Origin: Octopus vulgaris
Taxonomy: Eukaryota
DNA length: 64,000 nucleotides
Direction: 5' to 3'
Assembly: GCA_951406725.2 (NCBI GenBank)
Contig: OX597818.1
Location: 69,130,001-69,194,000, forward strand
The notes below the pieces were generated by a model that worked only from the letters and a program-made list of their open reading frames with translations, made no database searches and was not told the DNA's origin. The position numbers and the translations under genes are program-made. Below are positions 3,765 to 57,773 of this stretch, piece by piece; position 1 is the stretch's first letter; the number at the start of each line of letters is the position of its first letter.

Positions 3765-5610
3765 TTACAGAGTGTTCTTTCATCACACTTCTGTGACCTC
3801 ATCAGTGCTCATTTGCTTTCTTCTTTCTTTTTTGTGTGTCTTTCCTTATTAACGATCTGCCATTTTGTATTCCTATTATATTCCTATTATATCCCTCTGA
3901 ATGTGTGTCTGTGTTTAGTAAGTGTGTGTGTGGGGGGTGGGGGATGTGCCTGCATTATCAGTATCCCCTGTTTATACCCGTTCGTTTAATTTACTTTTAT
4001 TTATTCTATTCATTTCCTTTTCTTTTCTTTCTTCTTTTGTATTAATTTAATTTAATTTATTTTGTTAATGTATATCGTTATTTAATTCCATTTATCTATC
4101 TGTATATTGTTTTATTATCAGTTTATGGGGATCTTATTCTGTCATAGTTTGTGGTGTGTCTGTGGGGGGGTGTACTAGTGTTCCATTCTAGTTTCCTATT
4201 CAGGCTAGATTTATCTTCTATTATATGTGTAGCTTCCGTAATATGTCTAAGCACTGCGTCTGTACTGTTTGCACAAGGTTTTAACTGCTATGTTGTTGAG
4301 TAAGCCCCCATGTTCCTGTTCAGCATGCTGGTACAGAAGCTTATGCTCCCTCCAATGCTCATTTATCCCCTCTCCTTTACTCCATGCTGTCTCCCCTTTG
4401 TACGTCGTTGTCTTGTTACTGCACCGTCATTCTGTACATCTTATACTATAGACTACATTCCTAGCTTTACAGTTTGTTTGTGGACTAAACCTACATACAG
4501 TAGAGTTCCTATCAGTACAGGGGGTTCTACCAAAAAGGTAGGTTGTACCTATTAAGGATTTGATAGGGTTGCCTGGCCTTTCTACAACCTTCATTCTTAG
4601 CTGAAGTTTGTCTAGGGCCCTTCTAAAATGGTACACCAGTTTGCTTCTAGGGTTGGTGTCGACGAACATGACACTCTGGTATTTGTGGCTATCATACCAA
4701 GAGTTGGCCTTCCCTATTTTCTTCTTAGTCCTTTCAGTGGTGTTCCATAACTTGCTCCTATAGAGTGGGCAAATCCCATTCCTATCATTACGTATGATAG
4801 TTTCAAATTTCCTCATGGCTCCTTTGTATACTCTAATCCTTTCTCTATGGCTGTGTCCTAAGAACTGCATGCGGTGAACGAAATATTGTATGTGTCTTTT
4901 TAACTCTGTAGGGTCGTACATGCAGGACACATTTCTCATTATTCTGACGAGGTCTGCCATCAATATATTGAATTTGGCATTGTCTGTGATAGCTGAGTTC
5001 CAGTGGATCAGGTATTTGGAGGCCATAGGTTTGGCATAGTACGAATGAAGGATTCGGGTTTTATTATTCTCAGTTTCCAGCCAGAGTTCTGTGTCTAATA
5101 CTGGTAGTCTATGTTTAGGGTGTTTTGTAGCGTAGTCTATCGTGACCTTAATACTCTGGTGGATGGAGTTAGCTATTTGCTGGATTCTCTCCATAGTATT
5201 AGTTTCTATTTCTATTTCAAGAGTACTGTCTTGTGGGGGTGCCTTTACCACTATGTTGATATCATCAACATAGCGAGAGTACATGTTCACGAGTATGGAG
5301 TTCTGTGTCAGGCGTTCCTTAAGCCTTCTGTCCCACCATACCATGAAAAGGTTGGCCACATCACTGGTGATACTAATTCTGATGGCTGCCACCTAATCCT
5401 GGGCATATATTTTGTTGCTAAACTTAAATGTGAGGCCTTTTAGGGTAACTCTAGTGTATGTACGATCATTTTCTTTACTTGATATTAGTTTTCAGGGATC
5501 TGTATGGCTCTGGTCCATCTGCTCCATCTCTCTATAGGGGTTTTCCTAGCTACAGAAATAATTGTAGGGGTCTACCTCTTAAACATCTGTTGAGGCAGAA
5601 ACTTCTAAGG
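3765..5610 (-). mobile_element. Penelope-like element (decayed RT C-half, GIY-YIG endonuclease, 3' region)
   Basis: ORF 4427-5392 contains ANLFM, YSRYVDD, LPVLD, YYAKP and CKARNVVYSIRC. Past a stop codon the frame continues as YKGET...EH, fitting a GIY-YIG domain. A degenerate hammerhead lies downstream on the same strand. Confidence 0.85.
3770..3810 (-). ncRNA. Degenerate minimal hammerhead motif (family 9)
   Basis: Minus strand: gagca CTGATGA ggtcac-agaagt-gtgat GAAA gaa cactc. Stem I becomes gagcg/cgctc if CpG decay is reversed; the cleavage triplet is lost. Confidence 0.5.
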
Positions 5611-14399: not shown

Positions 14400-16642
14400 G
14401 TTTGGAGTGCTGATGTAATCCCTGATGTGAATTAAAGTAAAAAGTCTTGGAGTGTAGGAAAAGAGCAGACTAGATGTGTGGAGTGGTTGAGTGACATTGA
14501 AAAGGACATAACACTTTCTGGTGGTTATTCCCAATAATCACCAAGAGGATTTAGAGATAATATCTGATATGGTAATTATCCAATGTAGGAAGATGCCAAA
14601 TTAGAAGACTCCTGGCAAAGACACAGTGCAAGGATTCTGATTGGCAAAAAAAAAAAAATCAAGGGCCCTTCGTGGGAGAATTGCTGAACAACTGAATAAT
14701 ATTTTTAATAGAGAAGAGAGATTGGCAGAATGGTTAACGTTTGGGAGAACGATTTTGTGTTTGAAGGAATCCAGTAAAGGAAATGCAGTTGAAGACTTTT
14801 GACCTTTCCTTTGCTTTCCACTAATGTGGAAGCTTACGACAGGTGTCATTGCTGAAGAGATGTACGAATATCTGGAGAAGACACTACCTGAAGAGCAAAA
14901 GGGATTAAGGAGAAGGACTAAAGATCAATTGCTGATTGATAAGATAATCCTTAAAGATTGTAAAAGGAGGCACAAAATTCATGCCATGACCTGGATTGAT
15001 TACTGCAAAGTCTATGACACAGTGCCACATAATTGGTTAGTGGAATGTTTTGAAATGCTTGGTATTTGCAGCTAATGTTGGACAGTTTCTGGTGATCAAT
15101 ATGGATGGCTGGAAGACTGAGTTGACATCATATACAGTAGACAGACATTGAGAGTTGTGGACATTGAGGAATATTCCAAAGAAAGAGTCTTCTCGACTTT
15201 GTCGTTTGTATTGTGTATGGTTGCACTTTCATTAATGTTGAGAAGGACAAAGGCTGGGAGGATGTGCGTTTAAGATAAACCAACAGCTATTCATGGATGA
15301 CCTAAAACTGTTTGGGAAGTACTATGAACAAAATGATTCCCTTGTACAGACAGTTCATACATTCAGGATAAAATTTGGCATAAAATGTGTGGAGTACTAC
15401 AACTGAAGTGCAGTAATATTGATATGATGGAAGGAATTATATTACTGGATGGGGAAGTTATGGAGGAAATTGACAACAACGATCTAAGTAATTAGGCATC
15501 CTGGAAACAGACCAAATTCAAGAGAAGGAAATGAAAGAATTATTATCAAAGGAATACAAACAGAGACTGAAGTTGGTGTTAAAAACAGGGCCATTGCACC
15601 TCTAAGGCCCAGCGACGGTGTGATGGAGTGGAGAAGTGATGAGCTTAAGGAGCCTGATAGAAAACCAGAAACATGTTGACACTACGAGGGGCCCTACACC
15701 CTAAAAGTGAGGTGAGCAGGTTGTGTCTATTGTGACATTAGATGTGAATTGTGTACAAAATCTGTGGAAAATAATCTGGCTTGGAATGCAAAATATTCAA
15801 AGGAGAGACTGATGGCAGGTGTAAGAAAAATTAAAGTCTTGAGCAGTGATGAAGTGAAAGAAAAGAGAGAACTGAAACACGACAGACAGGATAACACCTT
15901 AAACAGATGGAAAGGAAAAGTATGTATGGTCGATTCTTGCAGGAAATGCCTGCAGCACTTGACAAAGGTAAGATCTGGGAATGGACTCGGAAAAGTAAAT
16001 TGAAAGTTGAAACTGAAGCCGTTATTTTCAAAGCCCAAGAACAGGCACTGGAAATGAATTATATCAAGATCAATATTATCATGTCAGTGAATTCCCCACA
16101 TTGCATGTTGTGTGGTGAGAAAGGTGGAACGTTAGTGAACGTAAGATGCCTGCACAAAAGACGTGTAAGAGAAGGCATAACAACATTGCCAGATTGGTTT
16201 ACTGAAAACTCTGTTATATGTATGAAATGAACAGATGTGTGAAATGGTATGAACACCAAAACTGGAAAGGGTTGCTGAAACCAAACAATGCCAGATCTTG
16301 TGGGACATGATCATCAAGTGTGACCATCTTATCGTGGCTAGAATACCTGTTGTCATAGGAAAGGAGAAGAATAGAGCAATTATTGTGGATATTAATTCAC
16401 TGTAGGACCACATTTGACTAATAAGGAAAGTGGTGATAGAGTTGAGAAATATCAGGAGCTGAAGAGGGAAATAAGGAAACTAAGGAGGATCAGACAATTA
16501 GAAGTGGTACTGATTGTGGTTTGTGCACTAGGAGCAGTTAGTAAAGGGCTGGATGCAGGGTTTGAGAAGCTAGGAATTACCATCAGAATGGGGGCTGTTG
16601 CAGAAAACTGCCTTGTTAGGAACAGCAAAGATTCTAAGGAGG
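14400..16642 (+). mobile_element. R4/Dong-clade non-LTR retrotransposon, decayed (RT, CCHC remnant, restriction-like endonuclease)
   Basis: Fragments include KTPGKD, LPEEQKG...[59 protein letters not shown] and ALGAV...LLQKTALLGTAKILR. Many stops and frameshifts. Confidence 0.9.
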
Positions 16643-16732
16643 ATACAGTTCTATATTTAAGAGATGAGGAATTATGTACATTATTTACATTATTTACATT
16701 TGACGATATTTGTCCTCATCTTGTTTGTTGTT

Positions 16733-16778
16733 AACACAACATTTCAGCTGATATACTCTCCAGCCTTCATCAGGTGTC
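16733..16778 (-). ncRNA. Minimal hammerhead motif (family 1)
   Basis: Minus strand: gacac CTGATGA aggctg-gagagtatat-cagct GAAAT GTT gtgtt. Confidence 0.75.
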
Positions 16779-16825
16779 TTTGGGAAATTTCGAACCTGAG
16801 TTCTCATTCCTAAGGTATTTTTCAA

Positions 16826-16883
<58 letters not shown>

Positions 16884-16887
<4 letters not shown>

Positions 16888-16960
16888 TCACTGCTTGGAA
16901 TCGAACTCGGAATCTTGGGGTTAGTAGCCCGTGCTCTTAACCACTATGCCATATACCCAT
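16884..16960 (-). other. tRNA-derived SINE head (Pol III A and B boxes), not a functional tRNA
   Basis: A box TGGCATAGTGG, anticodon-like arm GGG-CTACTAA-CCC, B box GTTCGATTCC. The acceptor stem does not close. Confidence 0.75.
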
Positions 16961-17024
16961 GGGCATAAGCTGTAACATCGAAAAATACCTTAGGAATGAG
17001 AACCCAGGTTTGAAATTTCCCCAA

Positions 17025-17070
17025 GACACCTGATGAAGACTGGAGAGTATATCAGCCGAAACGTTGTGTT
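17025..17070 (+). ncRNA. Minimal hammerhead motif (family 1)
   Basis: gacac CTGATGA agactg-gagagtatat-cagcc GAAAC GTT gtgtt. Stem I is gacac/gtgtt; stem III is the loopless palindrome AACGTT. Confidence 0.8.
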
Positions 17071-17254
17071 AACAACAAACAACACGAGAACAAATATCCG
17101 TCTAATGTAAATAATCTAAGGAGGACATTTGAAAGTTGAAGGAATGATCCAAAGGACCGTTGATCATTTGATATGGGTCACTCTTTTGGTAGAGTGCCAG
17201 CAGAACATCTACCAGAGCAAAAGCATCATGGATAATAATAACAATAATGGTAAG

Positions 17255-30765: not shown

Positions 30766-30814
<49 letters not shown>

Positions 30815-30818
<4 letters not shown>

Positions 30819-32785
30819 GGCCGTAAAAACAAACATAGGTAGGGAATTCTTGAAAATTAGTCTCTAGGCATTTTCAAAAGGATCATAAATTTTATAGAAT
30901 ATTTAATAGAGAACCCTTAAGATCAGCCATTCTTGCTGCAGAAACTTTGCCTCTTTCGTTAACCAACACAACAGTAAATTAATTGTTAATAAGCGTAGTG
31001 CTGATCCTCTTAAAAAATGCAATTGCAAAGATGGATCCTCCTGTCCGTTGGAAGGGAACTGTTTGGAAAAAAGAATCGTATATAGAGCCAAGGTGCAAAT
31101 AGAAGGCTCACCTGAATATAGGATTTATACAAGGGCTTCTGAAAATTCTTTTAAAACCCGATTTTATTCGCACAGAAATTCCTTTCGATACCCAGAAAAT
31201 AAGACGAAGACTAGCCTGGCGAAATATGTCTGGGAATTAAAAGAAAAAGAAGCCCGACCTTTCAAAGTGTCATGGAATATTTTAGATAGAGCGGCACTAT
31301 AGATGCATGGTACGCATAGGAGGAATTTCAAGTACGACCTAAGTTTGCTAGAGAAATATTTTATTTTATTCCTAGACATGAATTCTTTGAATCAAAGAAG
31401 CGAACTCTTGAATTCATAAAGACACGCAAATAAATTCAAAATGTCGAAAATCAATATCCCATATGGATAGCGTATATTTTTGTTTTAGGGATTTTTTTAT
31501 TCTTGGACTAGTTTTTGATCACACTGTTGGATTTGTTTCGTATTGTGCAGGTTTTATTCCGCATCGTAAAGTTTTTGTATATATTTCGATATATTTCTTA
31601 AGAAAAACCTTCGAATTATTTTATTTTATTTTATTGTATTTTATAAACCCACTTTGGTCATTTAATTTATAGATAATCCAATATAGGGTGCTATATTTTG
31701 AATGTCTTTTATCTAAAATTTTTATTATTATGCACTCAGCAATTTTAAAAAAAATAATCTTGTTTGTATATACGCCACACTCTAGACATGTTTTTATGTG
31801 AATATTTGTATTGGCATGCATATGTATTTGTAAGCATGCGTCAATATATATGTGTAAGTGAGCGTGTATGTTTGTACTTATGCACATACACACATGGGTG
31901 TATATGTATGCATGTATTCACTTGGATTTGTGTGGATGTGTTTTTACATATTTGTCTCTATGTATTTACATATGCGTTCTTATATGTGCATTTACTGCTT
32001 ATATACACTTTTATATACACATGTATACATAATCTTATTTCATGAACGTTCGTTATGCATAGTCAGACTTTTTTTCTTTCTTCTTTTCTTTCGTTATTTT
32101 TCTCTCCCTATTCGTTACTTGTATAGGGTCCTGTAACTTTACGCCCCTCTCCCATTCTCTTACTCTTTAGCTTTCTGTTGCTTATAAGATCGTTACCTTT
32201 TCTTTTCTTCCTCCTCTTTGCGTTTTACTTCTAGTCTATATATATTTACAAAGTGATTTTTGCATGCGAGCAAGATTGCATATACATATGTATACATGTA
32301 TTTGTGTGTATATTTTTGTTTTACATTTATATGTCTGTATATGTATGTGGTCTGCACATCTATCTGTGTATTTTGATGTATACATGTATATTGGTGGTTT
32401 AGTATGAGTATATACTGTTGTGAAATATTTTAATTTCAATTTTTATGTATTAATTGTATTAATCGAAATATATTTTCTACGTTATTAATGACAATATATA
32501 TTTGAATCAACTCTTCGTTTTAAGGTTTTTCCTCGATTTTTATAATTTATATTGAGCTCATTTATTTTATTTTGTTTATTTTGTTTATCGCTCGCCTATG
32601 ACCATTATTTGAAAGGACCAATGAAACAAATCCATTTTTTAAAGATGCATCGTTTAGCTAGTTTTGATCAAATTATCTCGGTTCTATTTTAACAAAACTG
32701 TCCGACGAACGGGAACGTGAAACTCCAAGTAACAGCTTTTGTTACATTTCTTTTGTTACATTTCTGCTGCATTTAAATAAAGTAT
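30815..32785 (+). mobile_element. Penelope-like element 3' portion: GIY-YIG endonuclease remnant (about 30815-31460), long AT-rich 3' region, hammerhead pLTR
   Basis: CNCKDGSSCPLEGNCLEKRIVYRAKV...YRIYTRASENSFKTRFYSH...TSLAKYVWELK...LLEKYFI...LNQRSE...RHANKF. That the remnant and the hammerhead belong to one insertion is inferred. Confidence 0.8.
32694..32740 (+). ncRNA. Minimal hammerhead motif (family 3), CCGACGA core
   Basis: aaaactgt CCGACGA acg-ggaa-cgt GAAAC tccaa GTA acagcttt. Confidence 0.75.
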
Positions 32786-34239: not shown

Positions 34240-34790
34240 TATAATGATAGAGACTACTTATATGCACTAAATGTATGTTTTTGCCAATGCTTACATCTGT
34301 ATGCTCGCTCTATAACCGTGTTTACTAGAGTATTTTTAGAAAAAATAATGAAAAATAGCTCAGAATTGCAGAGAAGACAGAATTTCTTGCCTTTGTCATA
34401 TGGTATCGAAATTGAGAGAATCAACCATTCTAAATGAAATTGTTCATTGTGGTCTTTTAAATCTCAAATCAGTTTGCTGAGATCGGTACTATTCCGTTTA
34501 TTTCTATCCCTAAATGTTTTTTTCACTTTCCTGAGGAGAAGATTGCATTGTTTATACCATTTATTCTTTTGAATAGTATCAGTGGAATTTTCGAAACATG
34601 TGTCGAAAGTAAAAATATTTGATTACACCTGCGTTAACTCCATTTTTTTATTCATATTATTCAAGATATTCAACGTAAACACGAAGTTTCTACCTTTATA
34701 AACAAGGAGTTACAACACCTTTACTTGTGAGATTTTTGCTGCCCTGGTAACTATTTATTTTTTTTTCCGTGTTAATTGTTAACAAGGTAA
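34240..34790 (+). mobile_element. Penelope pLTR-like repeat (family 4)
   Basis: 34240-34660 is colinear with the reverse complement of 63510-63890. It contains a hammerhead and is flanked by (TA)n. Confidence 0.7.
34525..34610 (+). ncRNA. Type I hammerhead ribozyme with intact core (family 4)
   Basis: actttc CTGAGGA gaagattgcattg...cagtggaattttc GAAAC ATGT GTC gaaagt. Perfect 6-bp stem I and long stem II; predicted GUC cleavage after 34604. Confidence 0.85.
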
Positions 34791-35721: not shown

Positions 35722-36057
35722 TTAATGTAGCTGTTAGTTATGGCCAGTCAACAACTTACCAATGGGTTTGCATCCTAGCAAAATAAGCAGCTCATGAGAC
35801 CTGCTGGCTGGAGGCACAAAACCTCTGTATTAATGAAGGTAAGAAAGCACTATTCGTCAGTCGAGGTTGTGTTACCTATATATATATATCTGTAAAATAA
35901 TATGAGTCAATTATTCAATAGCCAAGGTAAAACACTGAGTTTTGGATGCCGAGGTGGAAATCCACAACACCATCTCTTCGGTTATCTGGCCATCTGAAAA
36001 AATATTTACATAATATTGAGGTCTCTTTCTTTCTTTTGTTATCTTAACGTTTTTACC

Positions 36058-37105
36058 AATAGCCCTCTCAGACATGCCCTCAGACACGCAGAGAGCCACG
36101 ATCACAAGTTATGCAGATGATACAAAAGTTTCACAGGCAATACAGAACCCTGAAGACACTAAGCACCTGCAATGTGAGCTGGACGAAATATACAAGTGGG
36201 CTGAAAAGAATAGCATGCAGTTCAATGCTGAAAAGTTTCAAGCTTTATACTATCAGCATGCAAAACTAAATGCAATACCCAATGAATACACTGGACCCGG
36301 AGGAATAGCAATCCCAGAGGCACAATCAGTGCGTGACCTGGGTATTTACATGAGCGATGACGCAACCTTTCGTGTTCATGTTGCTAAATTGGCAATGAAA
36401 TGTAGACGACTGGCCGGATGGATTCTCAGAACCTTTAGAACAAGAGAACAAGAAACCATGATGGTCCTCTGGAGGACACTTGTCCTAAGCCACTTTGACT
36501 ATTGCTCTCAGTTATGGTCACCATCCAGTGTCAAGTTGATCACAGAGCTCGAGGCGATCCAGCGTAGCTACACGAAGAAGATAGCCTCTATGCAGAATGT
36601 AAGCTACTGGGAAAGACTCAAGAGATTAAAACTATATTCCTTGGAGCGTAGGCGGGAAAGATATGCCATAATATACATCTGGAAGATCCTGGAGGGACGT
36701 GTCCCAAACTTTGGCATCGAGAGTTACACAAATGCCAGAACTGGGCGCCACTGCGTGGTGCCTAGGACTCCAAATTTGCCATCAAGATGTAGGACAAGAT
36801 ACTGTGATAGCCTGGGCTTCCGTGGTCCACAGCTCTTCAATATCCTCCCGAAGAACCTGAGAGACCTGCATGGGGTGGATGCAGATGTCTTTAAAATGGA
36901 ACTGGATCTCTTCCTGTCAGATGTCCCAGATGAACCAACTTCACGGCAGGAGGTGCAGATGAGGGCAGCTGCATCGAACTCTCTCATGCACCAAATGGCA
37001 GTTGCTAAAAAGCTTTCGTGAAGTAAAACCAAGTAGCAACACCAAATGGCGGTGCTCCAGCATGGCCACAGCTCATGAGCTGAAACTAGAATCAATCAAT
37101 CAATC
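36058..37105 (+). mobile_element. CR1-clade LINE, 5'-truncated, with uninterrupted RT C-half (ORF 36074-37021)
   Basis: YADDTK, LQCELDEIYKWAEKNSMQFNAEK, RDLGI, DYCSQLWSP, YWERLKRLKLYSLERRR; 3' stem-loop and (ATCA)n tail. Confidence 0.92.
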
Positions 37106-42211: not shown

Positions 42212-43248
42212 CAGTCAAGGCGGCACTGGCATCAACCACATTTGGATGGGGCATTTTACGTGCCACCGGCACAGGTATCACAACTACAATTTCCATTTGA
42301 TTTTTTGATGCTGATGTACTTGTCTCAATAGGTCTACTCAAGCACAGCAGGTCGCCCTACGATCCAAGGTAAGCACAGTAGGCCGTCCTGTGATCCAAGG
42401 TACTTTGGATGGGCTGAGGCTTCTATGTGAAGCTGGTGCAGGAAGCAGCCATGAACTCACGTTATTTGTCAGGTCTTCGCAGTCGCAGCATATCTCCAGA
42501 GGTCTCGGTCTTTCGTCATTGCCTCTGTGAGGCCCAACGTTCGAAGGTCATACTTGACCACCTCATCCCATGTCTTCCTGGCTCTACCTCTACCCCGGAT
42601 TCCTTCAACTGTTTGGGAGTGGCACTTCTTCACACATCTCTCCTCATCCATCTGTAGTACATGACCATACCAGCGCAGACGTCTCTCTTGCACGCCACAT
42701 CCAGTGCTTCTTATGTCCAACATTTCTCTCAGGGCACCTACACTCTGTCGTGTGTGCACACTGACATTACACATCCAGCGGATCATGCTAGCTTCATTTT
42801 TTTCAAGCCTACGCATGTCCTCTGCACTCACGGCCCATATTTCACTACCGTGAAGCATGGCAGTACACACACATGTGTCGTACAATCTACCTTTCACTCT
42901 GAGTGAGATACCCTTTGTCACTAGTAGGGATAGAAGCTTTCTAAACTTTGCCCAGGCTATACGTATTCTAGTGGTAACTCTCTCTGAGCATCCACCTCCA
43001 CTACTAACTTGGTCACCCAGGTAGCGGAAACTATCAACTACTTCTAGTTTCTCCCCCTGGAGTGTGATGGAATCTGTTTTCTGAGTATCTGTGGTATCTA
43101 TTGCCCCTGGGCATCTGCCGTACAGGAAATCTATCTTCTCAGTTAATTTTCCTTTGATATTGCTGCACCTCTTATGCATCCATAGCTTACACTAGGTACA
43201 TCCTATGGAGTTTCTAGCGACATCTTTTCTACAGATTGAGCAGGGCCA
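42212..43248 (-). mobile_element. RTE-clade LINE fragment (ORF 42469-43179 and partial UTR)
   Basis: EVVDSFRYLGD, RIRIAWAKFR, VKGRLY, LHGSEIW, RRLRWYGHV, RGRGRARKTWDEVV. Confidence 0.92.
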
Positions 43249-47720: not shown

Positions 47721-50090
47721 AAAATTAATAACAATGTCATTACTTAAGTCGGGGCCAGAGATTTTAAGGGAAGGGTCTGTTTGTTGATAACTTTGGCCCC
47801 AGTTGACTTGACTTGATGAAAGACAAGATTGGTACCAGCAAGGATTGAACTCAGGGTGTATAGAACTGAAACAAATTCAAAAGAATTTCTTCCAGTGCCC
47901 TTAAGATTCCAGGGCCCTTACTGCTGCTCACATTGAATGAAATATTAAACTCTTTGAATATGCTAATTACTCCAATTCTCTAAATCTACTGGATTTGTTG
48001 CTTATAAGAAACCCTCAACCATTGTGGGTAAAACATTCCAAACCCCAGCACCGTGATAGGTGAAAGCTGCAAAGTAGAAACAGTACTGTATATTTATTTT
48101 ATTATTATTTTTATAACTTGTATATATTTTTTTAATTATAAATGCAAAACAACACCATGGAGGAATCGATGCAAGATTAAATAATGCAATACGTCCAGCT
48201 GTTACAGGCTCACTGTGTGGAGAGATGCTGAGCATAATGGGCCGAAATCTCAGTGAAGCACGGCGCTCAGCTGATGATTGTAGCCAGATGAGAAATGGAG
48301 CATTTGGTGTTTATAGACAGTGCATCTGTTTTTATATTAGACATAGCTAACACATCCCGCCCCTTCAAAAAAATGTCCTGATAAATATGTTTAGTCCATG
48401 AGTTTTGGGTCTCAAGTAAAAGGAACTAAAACCCCTATTTTAGTCACTCAATACATTGTCTCTCTTCTATCAACATTTGATAAATGATGTGTAAAAAGCC
48501 TAAAACTGGTGACATTTTGTTCTTTTGCTTTATTATTACTTTTTGTTTTTGTTCTTTTTTCTTCTGCAGCACCATATATTTTCACAATTATGATCCATCA
48601 GGCTGTCTCTTATATTTTAGTTTAGCAGATTTTCATTAAAATTTGAAAATGGAATATTTGGCAGCTCAAACAAAATTAAAAAGAAAATTTTTTGCAAGAC
48701 AAAAAGAACAAAAAAAAAAACCCAGAAAAAACACAGAGAAAGAAGAAGCTAAAAAAGAAGTAAATAAATATCTAAAACCAGTCAAAAACTAAATAAATAA
48801 GAAGGAGGGTGTTAAGCCCTGTCAAAACTGCAATCAGAAAAATACTGTTAAAAATTCAATTTTACAATTGAGGTAATTGATTGTTTGAATATTTTAAGTG
48901 CTTAAAATTTTATTGAAGAACTGATCGTGGGATTGATTTTTGTTTTAAAGTTTATTTTTAACCATGGTTCATGTTTTTTAGCTTTTGTTTTCCTGGTCCT
49001 TTTTTTTAATTTATTTCGTTTTATTTTAGTAAAATGATGAAACAAGATCGAAAATGAAGTAACATGAAACGAAGATCAAGAATGGCCGAACAATAATGAA
49101 GAGAGGTGGGCGAGAGAGAGAGAAAGAAAAAAAAAGGTGGGGGAATGAGTGTGAAGGAAAGGAAAGAGAAGAAATAAAAGAGGATGAGAAGAGATATAAT
49201 TATCAATTGACAAATTTGGATGATGTTGGCATGTTGTTATGTTGTTATTGTGTGATAAATTGGATTTGAAAAGAGAGCAAATATTGGTTAGACGAAGTCT
49301 GTCGTGTGAGCCAAGAGCTAACATGAAATAAAATGATTACAAAAAGGCTAACTTAGGAGACAACAAAGGAACCTCTTTAGGGGTCATTCAGATTGCTAGA
49401 AATAGCAGTTTTGTTCCTCTCAAAAAAACACTCTACTGTTTTAAAAGCAAAAGACACACCAGTCTGGGACAGGGACTCAAATAGCAAGGGGACAGTTCCT
49501 TGCTCCAGATTAAACCAGTGAAATTTAATATAAGATGGCTTTTGAAATACTTTTGGATATTTTCATGTATCAAAAAACAGACAAGATGGTCACAGTTGGA
49601 ATGGTTTTCACATCAGACCTACTTGTGCAGGGCTGACCTGGGACTAAACAAGATGATCAGATATGTAGCATAATGTAGTTTTAATCCCGCTGAAGCAGAA
49701 ATAAGTATGGTTAAAGCAAATCTGGCTTGGGGTTGACCTGAGGCTAAATAACAATTAGGTACCCTAAGTGAGATGCAATTATGTTGCTGAAGACTGTGTT
49801 TTGGTGATTTACTCGTGTCACATTTCAAAGCTGTGCAGAAAAGTTTCCAGTGAAATACATCAAATGATTCAAATGAAAGGCAATCATAACGAATGGAAAA
49901 CACGTCATCAAAGAAAAAGAAGAGTTGAGGATGTGAAAGAAAGACTCCACCGTCACCAACACCTCCAGCACCTTCAGTAAAGAGGATTTCAGGATACAAA
50001 AAAGTGAGTTCAACAGAGGAAGAGATGAGCTCAGAAAAGAAAAAGGAGATCACAGTAGAGAGGGAAATAAGAGATGAGAACAAAAAAAGG

Positions 50091-50310
50091 AGGTACAGTT
50101 CTATATTTAAGAGATGAGGAATTATGTACATTATTTACATTATTTACAATTGACAGATATTTGTCCTCATCTTGTTTGTTGTTAACACAACATTTCGGCT
50201 GATATACCTTCCAGCATTCATCAGGTGTCTTGGGGAAATTTCAAACCCTGGGTTCTCGTACCTAAGGTATTTTTCGATGTTATTATTATTATTATCATTA
50301 TTATTATTAA
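50091..50310 (-). mobile_element. Family-1 hammerhead body, second locus (motif 50184-50229)
   Basis: Colinear with 16643-16880, including the (TTA)n linker. Minus strand: gacac CTGATGA...cagcc GAAAT GTT gtgtt. Confidence 0.8.
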
Positions 50311-55325: not shown

Positions 55326-55399
55326 TATATATATATAAATATATTCTTAACTGTACACACACACACAGACACACACATACACACACACACAAACATATA

Positions 55400-55780
55400 A
55401 GGTTCTTTTGATGATGGTGCATATGCCCTCATCTCTAATCTCAATGTAGGTCCTAGTGAAACCCAGGGTTAAATACAATAGTTCTCTTGATATAGACGGA
55501 TAAAAATCTGTTACATTGAAATGGGTAAACCTTGCTCTACTCCTGTCACTTTTAGTTTTAAACCATGTTATGTCCTCGTTGGTGTGGCTGTGGGTCCTCC
55601 TAATGTTGTTGTTCTTCTTACCAACCAGCTGCTTGCTCAAAAGACAGATTTCAGACTTCACACAGTTGAACAGCCATCACTTAGAGGTGCAGAAGGAAAA
55701 TTTGGGTTTCTAATCTCTAATCCCTATAAAGGCTTTTTTTCTGGACTAGTGTCTCTATCCTATCCTCTCTACCTAGTCTA
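55400..55780 (-). mobile_element. Penelope-like RT fragment (N-terminal RT motifs)
   Basis: KSEICLLSKQL..NNNIRR...EDITWFK...ARFTHFNVTDFYPSISRELL. Confidence 0.8.
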
Positions 55781-57328: not shown

Positions 57329-57773
57329 TCAAGAAAATGGAGAAATAAATAATAATGAGAAGTGGATCTTTGGTGCAATAAAACCATTATTTAATTAGTT
57401 AAGAAAGATGAGAGTTAGAGTGAGTTTACAGCTGTTTCGGTATATCAGGCTGGGGTAAATACATATTTTCCTCATTGCAAATGATAGACATCATCAGAAA
57501 GTAAAAGGCAAAGATAAGCAAAAAGGATACTAGAGCATCCTCACACTATCTTTTGCTCTATTCTTTTTTTTTCTTTATCTTTGCCTTTTTCGTTCTGATG
57601 ATGTCTATCATTTGCAATGAGGAAAATACGTATTTACCCCAGCCTGATATACTGAAACAGCTGTAAACTCACTCTAATTCTCATCTTTCTTAACTAATTA
57701 AATAATGGTTTTATAGCACCAAAGACACACTTCTCATTGTGGTTTTTCTTCCATTTTCTTATCGTCTGTATAT
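57321..57773. repeat. Inverted repeat (arms about 215 bp, spacer about 17 bp), each arm with a hammerhead motif (family 5: 57424-57500 minus, 57592-57668 plus)
   Basis: Plus arm: gtt CTGATGA tgtctatca...tgatatact GAAAC AGCT GTA aac. The arms are reverse complements with few mismatches. Confidence 0.88.

What the first reader, a model, noticed from the sequence alone, without database searches (positions are those of the whole stretch)
16643..17115. Candidate tRNA-promoter hammerhead SINE, possibly mobilised by Penelope
Seen: on the minus strand a tRNA-derived head (A box TGGCATAGTGG, B box GTTCGATTCC) is followed by an (AAT)n linker and a body of about 190 bp containing a minimal hammerhead. 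Upstream of the head lies an inverted, truncated copy of the body, joined near a short palindrome (TACCCATGGGCA). The same body and linker recur at 50091-50310, without the head. Established: minimal type-I hammerheads and inverted partial pLTRs are hallmarks of Penelope-like elements, whereas classical SINEs borrow LINE 3' tails. Inference: this is a Pol III-transcribed, self-cleaving non-autonomous element that uses Penelope RT, a SINE/retrozyme hybrid I do not recognise as a described class. Only one head-plus-body copy is present here.
Basis: partly seen in the sequence, partly recalled or inferred. Interest (0 to 1): 0.85.

Follow-up and report, generated by a model that had tools for sequence, protein, structure and literature searches.

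The report
Penelope retrotransposon with tRNA-type promoter
This octopus repeat is not a separate SINE but the terminal repeat of a Penelope retrotransposon that carries a tRNA-derived head and likely starts its RNA there with polymerase III, which would make it a protein-coding mobile element run from a tRNA-type promoter.

Summary
Head, (AAT)n and hammerhead body form one family of about 40,000 insertions (15 in 1.0 Mb of unselected DNA; 9 of 9 heads lie with a body). The window locus is a single insertion with an 11-nt target duplication. Inverted pairs carry the Penelope 'tail' signature (33 of 38 have one long and one short 3' end). The partner was found, and it changes the reading: the unit is the terminal repeat (pLTR) of a decayed Penelope/Poseidon element. 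It lies about 23 nt after the ORF stop, and the body encodes the ORF's N-terminus. Short and ORF-linked copies share variants and body divergence, so no independent SINE lineage is seen. Most copies stop sharply at the head's first bases, 13 nt before the A box. The 2.6-kb sense strand has no TTTT (0 vs 5.8 shuffled; weaker, P=0.054, against synonymous shuffles), unlike six other Penelope ORFs here. Best reading: RNA starts at the head, likely by Pol III, and internal RT priming copies its 5' end into SINE-like solo pLTRs. Transcription and self-cleavage are untested.

The parts
16633..16643 (.). Target-site duplication, left copy (TCTAAGGAGGA)
   Evidence: same 11-mer at 17115-17125
16644..16685 (-). 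Penelope 'tail': the roughly 40-nt 3' extension present on this arm and absent from the inverted arm
   Evidence: two 3'-end classes (about body position 140-160 and 183-188)
16644..16830 (-). Body: pLTR segment that encodes the start of the Penelope/Poseidon ORF (ATG at about 16807; this copy has a 1-nt frameshift)
   Evidence: In L383 the tail runs in frame into the ORF; the body peptide aligns with the N-terminus of the 847-aa RT protein P0141
16733..16778 (-). Minimal type I hammerhead (core 16773-16767; predicted cut after GUU at 16738); two CpG transitions in this copy
   Evidence: Sequence; column counts; architecture as in PMC4209133
16831..16883 (-). (AAT)n linker, of variable length among copies (gap 8-312 nt, longer values include nested insertions)
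16884..16964 (-). tRNA-derived head with A box (16951-16941) and B box (16906-16897); acceptor and T stems broken
16955..16964 (-). Short palindrome at the head's 5' end; the sharp 5' boundary of most copies and the usual pivot of inversions; inferred transcription start
   Evidence: opposite-strand joints at this place in public contigs
16973..17114 (+). Inverted, 5'-truncated second arm of the same insertion, with the short 3' end and its own hammerhead (about 17025-17070, stem II mismatch)
17115..17125 (.). Target-site duplication, right copy
50087..50309 (-). Second, independent insertion: body with long 3' end, 5'-truncated within the (AAT)n linker

Best explanation
The unit is the terminal repeat (pLTR) of a decayed Penelope/Poseidon retrotransposon, whose RNA likely began at the tRNA-derived head under a polymerase III A/B-box promoter and whose RT likely primed internally just inside the ORF, so that copying back to the RNA's 5' end would give the roughly 300-nt SINE-like copies. 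Shown by sequence: the order ORF stop, about 23 nt, head, (AAT)n, body; the body as ORF N-terminus; two 3' ends about 40 nt apart, one at each end of inverted insertions; 8-18 nt target duplications; a sharp 5' boundary at the head; no TTTT in a 2.6-kb natural copy. Inferred: the endonuclease nicks both target strands about a dozen bases apart; two cDNAs start at the two internal sites; they join head to head at the 5' palindrome or at microhomologies. Inferred, less firmly: Pol III rather than Pol II made the RNA, including the full-length coding RNA. The hammerhead is probably not needed for insertion (a 3-nt deletion through it occurs in 15 of 99 copies) and may act in processing or translation of the RNA (untested).
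For: Linkage to the ORF: 25 of 30 ORF-end loci have the head and 26 of 30 the body directly downstream; near-full-length L383 reads tail, in-frame ORF (RT, GIY-YIG-type motifs), stop, head, linker, body. RT core: Pfam RVT_1 E=1.8e-8, 42% identical to an 836-aa Anolis protein against 26-31% to Neptune-type families of this genome. Tail signature: 33 of 38 inverted pairs long+short, expected 50%, p=2e-6; duplication of at least 8 nt in 22 of 38 against 0.97 in shuffled pairs. 5' step: exact 19-mer counts 876 (ORF, about -185), 1,109 (about -40), 4,043 (head, about +40), 9,016 (body); 40 of 40 arms not selected by the head and bearing an intact start motif begin within -6..+2 of the first G; by insertion, 32 stop at the head start, 8 inside the head, 2 run upstream. 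Pol III signs: A and B boxes at tRNA spacing with the tRNA fold broken; start at a G after a pyrimidine, 13 nt before the A box, with TATAA about 28 nt upstream (sequence); T4 runs 0 in 2,622 nt and 1 in 2,170 nt of two natural copies, against 6-15 in each of six other Penelope ORFs of this genome; 19 of 23 tRNA genes here have T4 or longer within 40 nt. Precedent for the steps: internal RT initiation at two sites inside the ORF start, both-strand cleavage, hammerhead not required (PMC11167929); TSS inside the pLTR (PMC8557442). One of 38 relatives with a visible 3' end (L389) has an A+B box motif, an AAT run and a minimal hammerhead in the same order, with 2 T4 and no T5 per 2.8-kb unit; chance 0.02 hits per set.
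Against: No RNA end, polymerase or cleavage was observed. The T4 deficit is significant against base shuffles (P=0.003 for L383, 0.06 for L382) but only P=0.054 and 0.23 against synonymous shuffles; low Phe content is common to the clade, and 5 of 51 relatives also have no T4, in shorter stretches. The copies are not independent data. Counts fall steeply between body and head too (2.2-fold), and 10 of 19 measurable ORF-linked heads carry internal deletions, so RT slips in this region; 14 of the 40 mapped starts are fold-backs at the palindrome, which a pause would also give. A-box columns vary as much as the rest of the head among copies (5.6% vs 6.3%; B box 2.7%), as expected for dead copies, so selection on the boxes is not shown. 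Heads of ORF-linked copies are more diverged than those of short copies (7.3% vs 4.9%, p=0.002), which is unexplained. Known Penelope promoters are spliced, Pol II-type (PMC8557442 passages). The L389 motif is not recognised by Rfam as tRNA. How an uncapped RNA would be translated is not shown.
Confidence: 0.55

Rival explanations
1. The RNA starts at the head but is made by Pol II from an ordinary pLTR promoter; the tRNA-like sequence is a captured relic and the short copies are plain solo pLTRs.
For: Penelope and Chlamys-3 have internal promoters and start sites in the pLTR (PMC8557442). TATAA at about -28 fits Pol II as well. Another family here without any tRNA head also gives sharp-ended solo units of about 220 nt (L238-L251). 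The T4 deficit is marginal against synonymous shuffles.
Against: The boundary sits at the distance from the A box expected for Pol III. Six other Penelope ORFs of this genome all exceed their shuffled T4 expectation and relatives average 1.29-fold over it, while this one has none.
Confidence: 0.22
2. The short copies are 5'-truncated products of the long RNA: RT stalls or the two cDNAs anneal at the GC-rich palindrome in front of the head, and no RNA starts there.
For: Frequent fold-backs at the palindrome (14 of 40 starts) and internal deletions in 10 of 19 ORF-linked heads; steep loss of copies already between body and head.
Against: The palindrome is only 10 nt; some copies begin at the first G behind unrelated flank with no fold-back; upstream of it the decline is only 1.27-fold over 145 nt against 3.6-fold over the 80 nt that span it; it does not explain the T4 deficit.
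Confidence: 0.13
3. One reading: an independent non-autonomous SINE lineage, re-amplified from short copies by Pol III and borrowing Penelope RT in trans.
For: Short copies outnumber ORF-linked ones about 4 to 8 fold, keep A/B boxes, have no T4 inside the unit and meet SINEBase's size, number and tRNA-identity thresholds. Their heads are less diverged than those of ORF-linked copies.
Against: The whole unit is part of the ORF-bearing element. Diagnostic variants occur in the same proportions in both sets (hammerhead N7 T:A 12:9 vs 34:22) and body divergence is equal (4.5% vs 4.6%, p=0.81). No short-only subfamily was seen in 70 short bodies.
Confidence: 0.1

Closest known systems
Penelope/Poseidon clade PLEs, e.g. 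PAc of Anolis carolinensis (PMC11167929; parts 1-2 of 4 read)
   Same: Single RT plus GIY-YIG-type ORF; pLTR with a minimal hammerhead overlapping the ORF start; two 3' ends (tail) about 120 and 160 nt into the ORF, against 111-118 nt plus a 30-40 nt tail in PAc; inverted 5'-truncated arm; 42% RT identity to an Anolis 836-aa protein (P0187; that it is PAc itself was not checked).
   Different: A tRNA-derived A/B-box head and an (AAT)n linker inside the pLTR; most copies end at that head; sense strand nearly free of T4. None of this appears in the passages read.
Schistosome Sm-alpha/Sj-alpha SINE-like elements (PMC2770079 and PMC6155905, passages)
   Same: tRNA-derived head plus a type I hammerhead in a high-copy short repeat.
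   Different: Described there as SINE-like, non-autonomous or satellite elements with a canonical, efficient hammerhead; here the hammerhead is minimal and the unit is physically the pLTR of an ORF-bearing Penelope.
Animal non-LTR retrozymes (bioRxiv 10.64898/2026.07.22.740005, parts 1-3 of 5; PMC7229834, passages)
   Same: Short hammerhead units related to PLE pLTRs and proposed to use PLE enzymes.
   Different: Retrozymes are head-to-tail tandem arrays giving circular RNA; these copies are dispersed singles or head-to-head pairs with target duplications, and carry a tRNA head.
tRNA-derived SINEs, including octopus OK/OR1/OR2 (SINEBase definitions, PMC3531059 section 4)
   Same: Under 700 bp, over 100 copies, at least 60% tRNA identity over 60 nt, A and B boxes.
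   Different: No LINE tail, no 3' simple-repeat tail, no separate lineage. OR1 or OR2 is cited as a CORE SINE (the two papers differ: PMC4824008, PMC4758252); I saw no body between head and linker that could be a CORE domain, but could not obtain the OK/OR sequences, so identity with one of them is not excluded.
Helenus, Ajax and Cassandra small-RNA-headed LTR elements (PMC10886601, start of abstract and passages)
   Same: A small-RNA-derived sequence built into a retroelement's terminal repeat.
   Different: Those are non-autonomous LTR elements; this is an ORF-bearing Penelope-like element.

Membership tests
Penelope-like element, Penelope/Poseidon clade | Single ORF with RT followed by a C-terminal GIY-YIG endonuclease | tested here: met
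   RT: Pfam RVT_1; homologs carry RVT_1 and PF26215, some PF01541. The endonuclease is read from VYSIPC..YKGET motifs (recalled pattern) and from tblastn alignment to P0141 residues 41-844; Pfam gave no GIY-YIG hit on the one decayed segment scanned.
Penelope-like element, Penelope/Poseidon clade | pLTR: the same segment before and after the ORF | tested here: met
   L383 has body positions 140-188 in frame before the ORF and the full head+body after it; L020, L049 and L286 show body running into the ORF start.
Penelope-like element, Penelope/Poseidon clade | 30-40 nt tail at one end, and inverted 5'-truncated arm | tested here: met
   33 of 38 inverted pairs long+short, p=2e-6.
Penelope-like element, Penelope/Poseidon clade | Minimal hammerhead in the pLTR | tested here: met
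   Short stem I, unpaired A, palindromic AACGTT; N7 is the only common non-CpG substitution in the core.
Penelope-like element, Penelope/Poseidon clade | RT groups with Poseidon rather than Neptune, Nematis or Hydra | tested here: inconclusive
   Identities (40-73% vs 26-31%) and the tree set it apart from Neptune-type rows (85/92), but no curated clade references were at hand and famC was left out for lack of an alignment.
SINE (SINEBase definition) | Short, interspersed, at least 100 copies | tested here: met
   About 300 nt; 15 insertions per Mb; 9,016 exact body 19-mers.
SINE (SINEBase definition) | At least 60% identity to a tRNA over 60 nt | tested here: met
   64-74% over 68-73 nt to genomic tRNA-Arg/Cys.
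SINE (SINEBase definition) | Non-autonomous family distinct from its partner | tested here: not met
   The unit is the partner's own pLTR; shared variants and equal body divergence.
SINE (SINEBase definition) | Reverse transcription by a partner LINE | tested here: not met
   The matching element is a PLE, and the ends show the PLE tail signature.
SINE (SINEBase definition) | [quoted passage not shown] | not testable with these tools
   Indirect only: boxes, 5' boundary, T4 deficit.
Non-LTR retrozyme | Head-to-tail tandem units, each with a hammerhead | tested here: not met
   0 of 15 unselected insertions are tandem arrays; partial direct repeats occur only occasionally (L002, L020).
Non-LTR retrozyme | Self-cleavage and circular RNA | not testable with these tools
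   Only contigs were available.
Octopus OK/OR1/OR2 SINEs | Sequence identity with the published consensus | not testable with these tools
   Paper not held; SINEBase supplements not readable.

The most novel reading that the evidence does not exclude
A Poseidon-type Penelope element captured a tRNA-derived promoter in its pLTR and became a Pol III-transcribed, protein-coding retrotransposon: its 2.9-kb RNA was purged of oligo-T terminators and translated without a cap, perhaps through the hammerhead, while internal RT priming spun off tens of thousands of SINE-like 5' copies. The same design may have arisen again in L389, making it a recurring route by which Penelope elements give birth to SINEs.
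Probability: 0.35. Interest if true: 0.85.

Novelty: new variant of a known kind. Interest (0 to 1): 0.66.

Why it matters
Pol III-driven mobile elements are defined as short and non-coding, and their RT partners as LINEs. An ORF-bearing Penelope with a tRNA-type head at its RNA start and an ORF free of Pol III terminators would be an exception to both rules. It also gives two open Penelope questions a large natural data set: the long/short end rule with 8-18 nt target duplications supports two-strand, two-site priming in vivo, and the family offers a setting in which to ask what the hammerhead is for. For annotation, some octopus repeats labelled SINE may be Penelope pLTRs.

Tried and rejected
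Chance insertion of a body into (TAA)n: rejected (28 of 30, 9 of 9). Partner among the young Penelope families: families A, B, C, D and 30 GIY-YIG loci had no pLTR matching the body; these end in (TA)n. The body peptide found no long open frame among 150 scored places (longest 231 aa) and only one database protein, an Octopus sinensis model that begins with this peptide. The partner came from unselected DNA. RNase P processing of the head: considered unlikely, since acceptor and T stems are broken and starts lie up to 6 nt before tRNA position 1 (inference). Selection on hammerhead columns among copies: differences are small (core 2.4%, flanks 3-5%), as expected for dead copies; not used. RNA evidence: no RNA holder on record was listed and only contigs could be laid, so no conclusion on expression or ends. 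First metagenome scan found nothing; the second gave 79 loci at 28-52% identity. My first A/B-box pattern was wrong and was corrected. Rfam gave no tRNA or hammerhead match. Earlier scan findings: none. Literature: ten searches showed no Penelope element with a tRNA-derived or Pol III promoter; Repbase, Dfam, the supplements of PMC8557442 (which lists Octopus elements; not looked at) and most subscription papers were not searched.

Full report
Observation. On the minus strand a head (16964-16884) with A and B boxes is followed by (AAT)n and a 187-nt body with a minimal type I hammerhead. An inverted, shorter body lies upstream (16973-17114, 91% identical) and a headless copy at 50087-50309. 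The locus is flanked by an 11-nt direct repeat (16633-16643, 17115-17125), so both arms are one insertion. The genome is 2.8 Gb in 227 contigs; the body peptide hits an Octopus sinensis protein model at 83%, so I take it to be an octopus.

It is a family. Of the 30 best head loci, 28 have the body within 400 nt on the same strand, and the other two carry it in the inverted arm; of the 30 best body loci, 23 have the head upstream in the same orientation (each set includes the window's own copy, and only 40 of 1,574 and 3,300 candidates were scored). In 100 unselected 10-kb stretches I found 15 insertions, about 42,000 per genome (95% range 23,500-69,000); all 9 with a head also have a body, and 6 are body only. 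Bodies differ from the column majority by 5.6%, 3.9% without CpG (48 copies). The head is 64-74% identical to genomic tRNA-Arg(TCT) and tRNA-Cys genes, but its acceptor and T stems do not pair, and Rfam does not call it.

Penelope signature. 3' ends fall into two classes about 40 nt apart. In 38 head-to-head pairs with both ends classifiable, 33 have one long and one short end (expected 50%, p=2e-6); 9 of 123 segments that did not reach the 3' region were left out. In 22 of 38 pairs the flanks share 8-18 nt, against 0.97 in shuffled pairs. This matches the 30-40 nt tail and inverted arm described for PLEs (PMC8557442, passages) and the two internal RT start sites and both-strand cleavage shown for the Anolis element PAc (PMC11167929, parts 1-2 of 4). 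The hammerhead has the minimal PLE form (PMC4209133, part 1 of 4 and passages). N7 is the only common non-CpG substitution in its core (T 74, A 28 of 104). Of 99 copies spanning it, 46 keep core and stems if G-U pairs are allowed and 13 are strictly intact; 15 carry a 3-nt deletion through the cut site.

The partner, and the change of reading. Four young Penelope families and 30 GIY-YIG loci had no matching pLTR. Unselected DNA then showed three copies (L027, L310, L349) sharing sequence upstream of the head. A search with it gave 30 loci in which an ORF ends, about 23 nt follow, and then the head (25 of 30) and body (26 of 30). In L383 the tail runs in frame into the ORF, which continues through RT and endonuclease motifs to the stop and a second head and body. 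The body peptide aligns with the N-terminus of an 847-aa database protein (44% over 43 aa, pairwise E=0.001). The RT core is 42% identical to an Anolis 836-aa protein and 26-31% to the Neptune-type families here. So the unit is the pLTR of a Penelope/Poseidon-type element, with the hammerhead inside the ORF start as in PAc. No intact copy was seen: among 150 listed matches to the N-terminal RT region the longest open frame was 569 aa.

Are the short copies a SINE of their own? I found no sign. Diagnostic variants occur in like proportions in ORF-linked and short copies (N7 T:A 12:9 against 34:22), and body divergence is 4.5% against 4.6% (23 and 70 copies). One result does not fit: heads of ORF-linked copies are more diverged (7.3% against 4.9%, p=0.002), which could reflect selection of those loci by one query, alignment around deletions, or later amplification of short copies.

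Why do most copies stop at the head? Exact 19-mer counts are 876 at about -185, 1,109 at about -40, 4,043 at about +40 and 9,016 in the body (the head probe includes a CpG base, so it undercounts). Among insertions not selected by the head that reach it, 32 stop within 12 nt of its first G, 8 stop inside it and 2 run upstream; two further loci with ORF pieces but no head (L056, L292) and 19 body-only insertions are outside this count. At base level, 40 of 40 arms with an intact start motif begin within -6..+2 of that G (L310 and L349 lack the motif and are not among them). The G follows a pyrimidine, lies 13 nt before the A box and about 28 nt after TATAA (sequence), which fits a type 2 Pol III start (recalled). 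Against this, 14 of the 40 are fold-backs at the 10-nt palindrome, and 10 of 19 measurable ORF-linked heads have internal deletions (11 could not be measured), so RT slippage contributes.

Terminator test. If Pol III made the full RNA, the ORF should lack oligo-T. L383 has no T4 in 2,622 nt (base shuffles 5.8, P=0.003) and L382 one in 2,170 nt (4.4, P=0.06); 30 copies have 3 in 24.6 kb. Six other Penelope ORFs of this genome have 6-15 each, all above their nulls; three short LINE fragments (0-2 each) are uninformative. Synonymous shuffles weaken the result (P=0.054 and 0.23). Among 51 relatives with at least 20% T, the total is 358 observed against 278 expected, yet 5 have none (expected 1.3-3.6) (12 of 63 with less T left out). 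In this genome 19 of 23 tRNA genes have T4 or more within 40 nt, and in 6 the first run is exactly T4. One of 38 relatives with a visible 3' end, the young tandem L389, has an A+B box motif, an AAT run and a minimal hammerhead in the same order and 2 T4 per 2.8-kb unit (0.02 chance hits per set); Rfam does not call it a tRNA. I treat it as a lead.

Mechanism. Shown: architecture, end classes, duplications, 5' boundary, T4 counts. Inferred from PAc: the protein binds the RNA just inside the ORF start, nicks both target strands, primes at two internal sites, and the two cDNAs join head to head. Priming at the 5' copy of that site reaches the RNA start after about 300 nt, which gives the SINE-like copies; priming at the 3' copy gives the rarer ORF-linked, variably truncated copies. 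Inferred with less support: Pol III makes the RNA. Self-cleaving ribozymes can drive cap-independent translation in other systems (PMC13725137, abstract only), but here the predicted cut lies about 70 nt after the first ATG, so that role is only a possibility. The origin of the head as a tRNA-derived unit with an (AAT)n end captured into the 3' UTR is a guess; no free-standing donor was seen in 1.0 Mb.

Known and new. It works like a Penelope/Poseidon element and meets the features I could test. Its short copies look like SINEs but fail two SINE criteria. tRNA head plus hammerhead is known from Sm-alpha (PMC2770079 and PMC6155905, passages), and pLTR-derived non-autonomous units from retrozymes (bioRxiv 10.64898/2026.07.22.740005, parts 1-3 of 5; PMC7229834, passages). 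A recent Octopus vulgaris repeat annotation lists many unclassified SINE and 190 Penelope-like families and does not mention ribozymes (PMC13282606, passages and supplement search). PMC10886601, PMC4758252, PMC4824008 and PMC5786205 were seen as passages and PMC3531059 as passages and section 4. Ten searches showed no Penelope with a tRNA-type promoter; Repbase, Dfam, the 1994 octopus SINE paper and SINEBase supplements could not be seen and may hold this family under some name. Verdict: new variant of a known kind, interest 0.66; the Pol III-transcribed coding element has probability 0.35 and would deserve 0.85.

Noticed in passing
L127:3080-4560 (+) and two units on the minus strand; similar unit at L135:21: Tandem array of a roughly 359-nt unit, each with a canonical type I hammerhead: a non-LTR retrozyme-like repeat.
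   Followed up: no
L098:3636-3890, L149:9180-9400, L238-L251: A second short family of about 220 nt with a minimal hammerhead variant (CCGACGA core), sharp ends, no tRNA head, inserted in (TA)n; 2,317 first-look candidates. Its coding partner was not identified.
   Followed up: partly
L121-L126, L167-L206, L252-L281: At least five young Penelope-like families with many near-identical copies and open frames of about 720 to 1,312 aa, ending in (TA)n, several with variant hammerhead cores (CCGAAGA, CTGATGC, TTGATAA).
   Followed up: partly
L389:2740-3070 (metagenome contig): Young tandem Poseidon-type element (2,791-bp unit, identical copies) with an A+B box motif, AAT run and minimal hammerhead between ORF stop and next ORF start; few T4 runs.
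   Followed up: partly
P0002: An Octopus sinensis protein model (368 aa, Cys-rich with a membrane segment) begins with 36 residues of this element's body peptide: an exonised copy or a gene-model artefact.
   Followed up: no
window 15895-16640 (+): The insertion sits at the end of a decayed non-LTR retrotransposon ORF (Dong/R4-like by recalled motifs; no Pfam hit).
   Followed up: no
window 4174-5601 (-), 30814-31467 (+), 34278-34531, 55398-55745: Fragments of four other Penelope-like families in this window; LINE fragments at 36020-37018 (+, RVT_1) and 42472-43191 (-).
   Followed up: partly
L011:1532, 1555, 1579, 1582: In two possible-RNA runs a few head variants dominate far more than in the DNA-like run, as if particular copies were over-represented; contigs cannot settle this.
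   Followed up: no
window 57347-57745: Inverted repeat with 178-nt arms, 93% complementary, 43-nt spacer; MITE-like.
   Followed up: no
L252:84-114 and many loci: A far more abundant tRNA-headed SINE-like repeat shares 77% identity over 31 nt with this head; a common origin was not tested.
   Followed up: no
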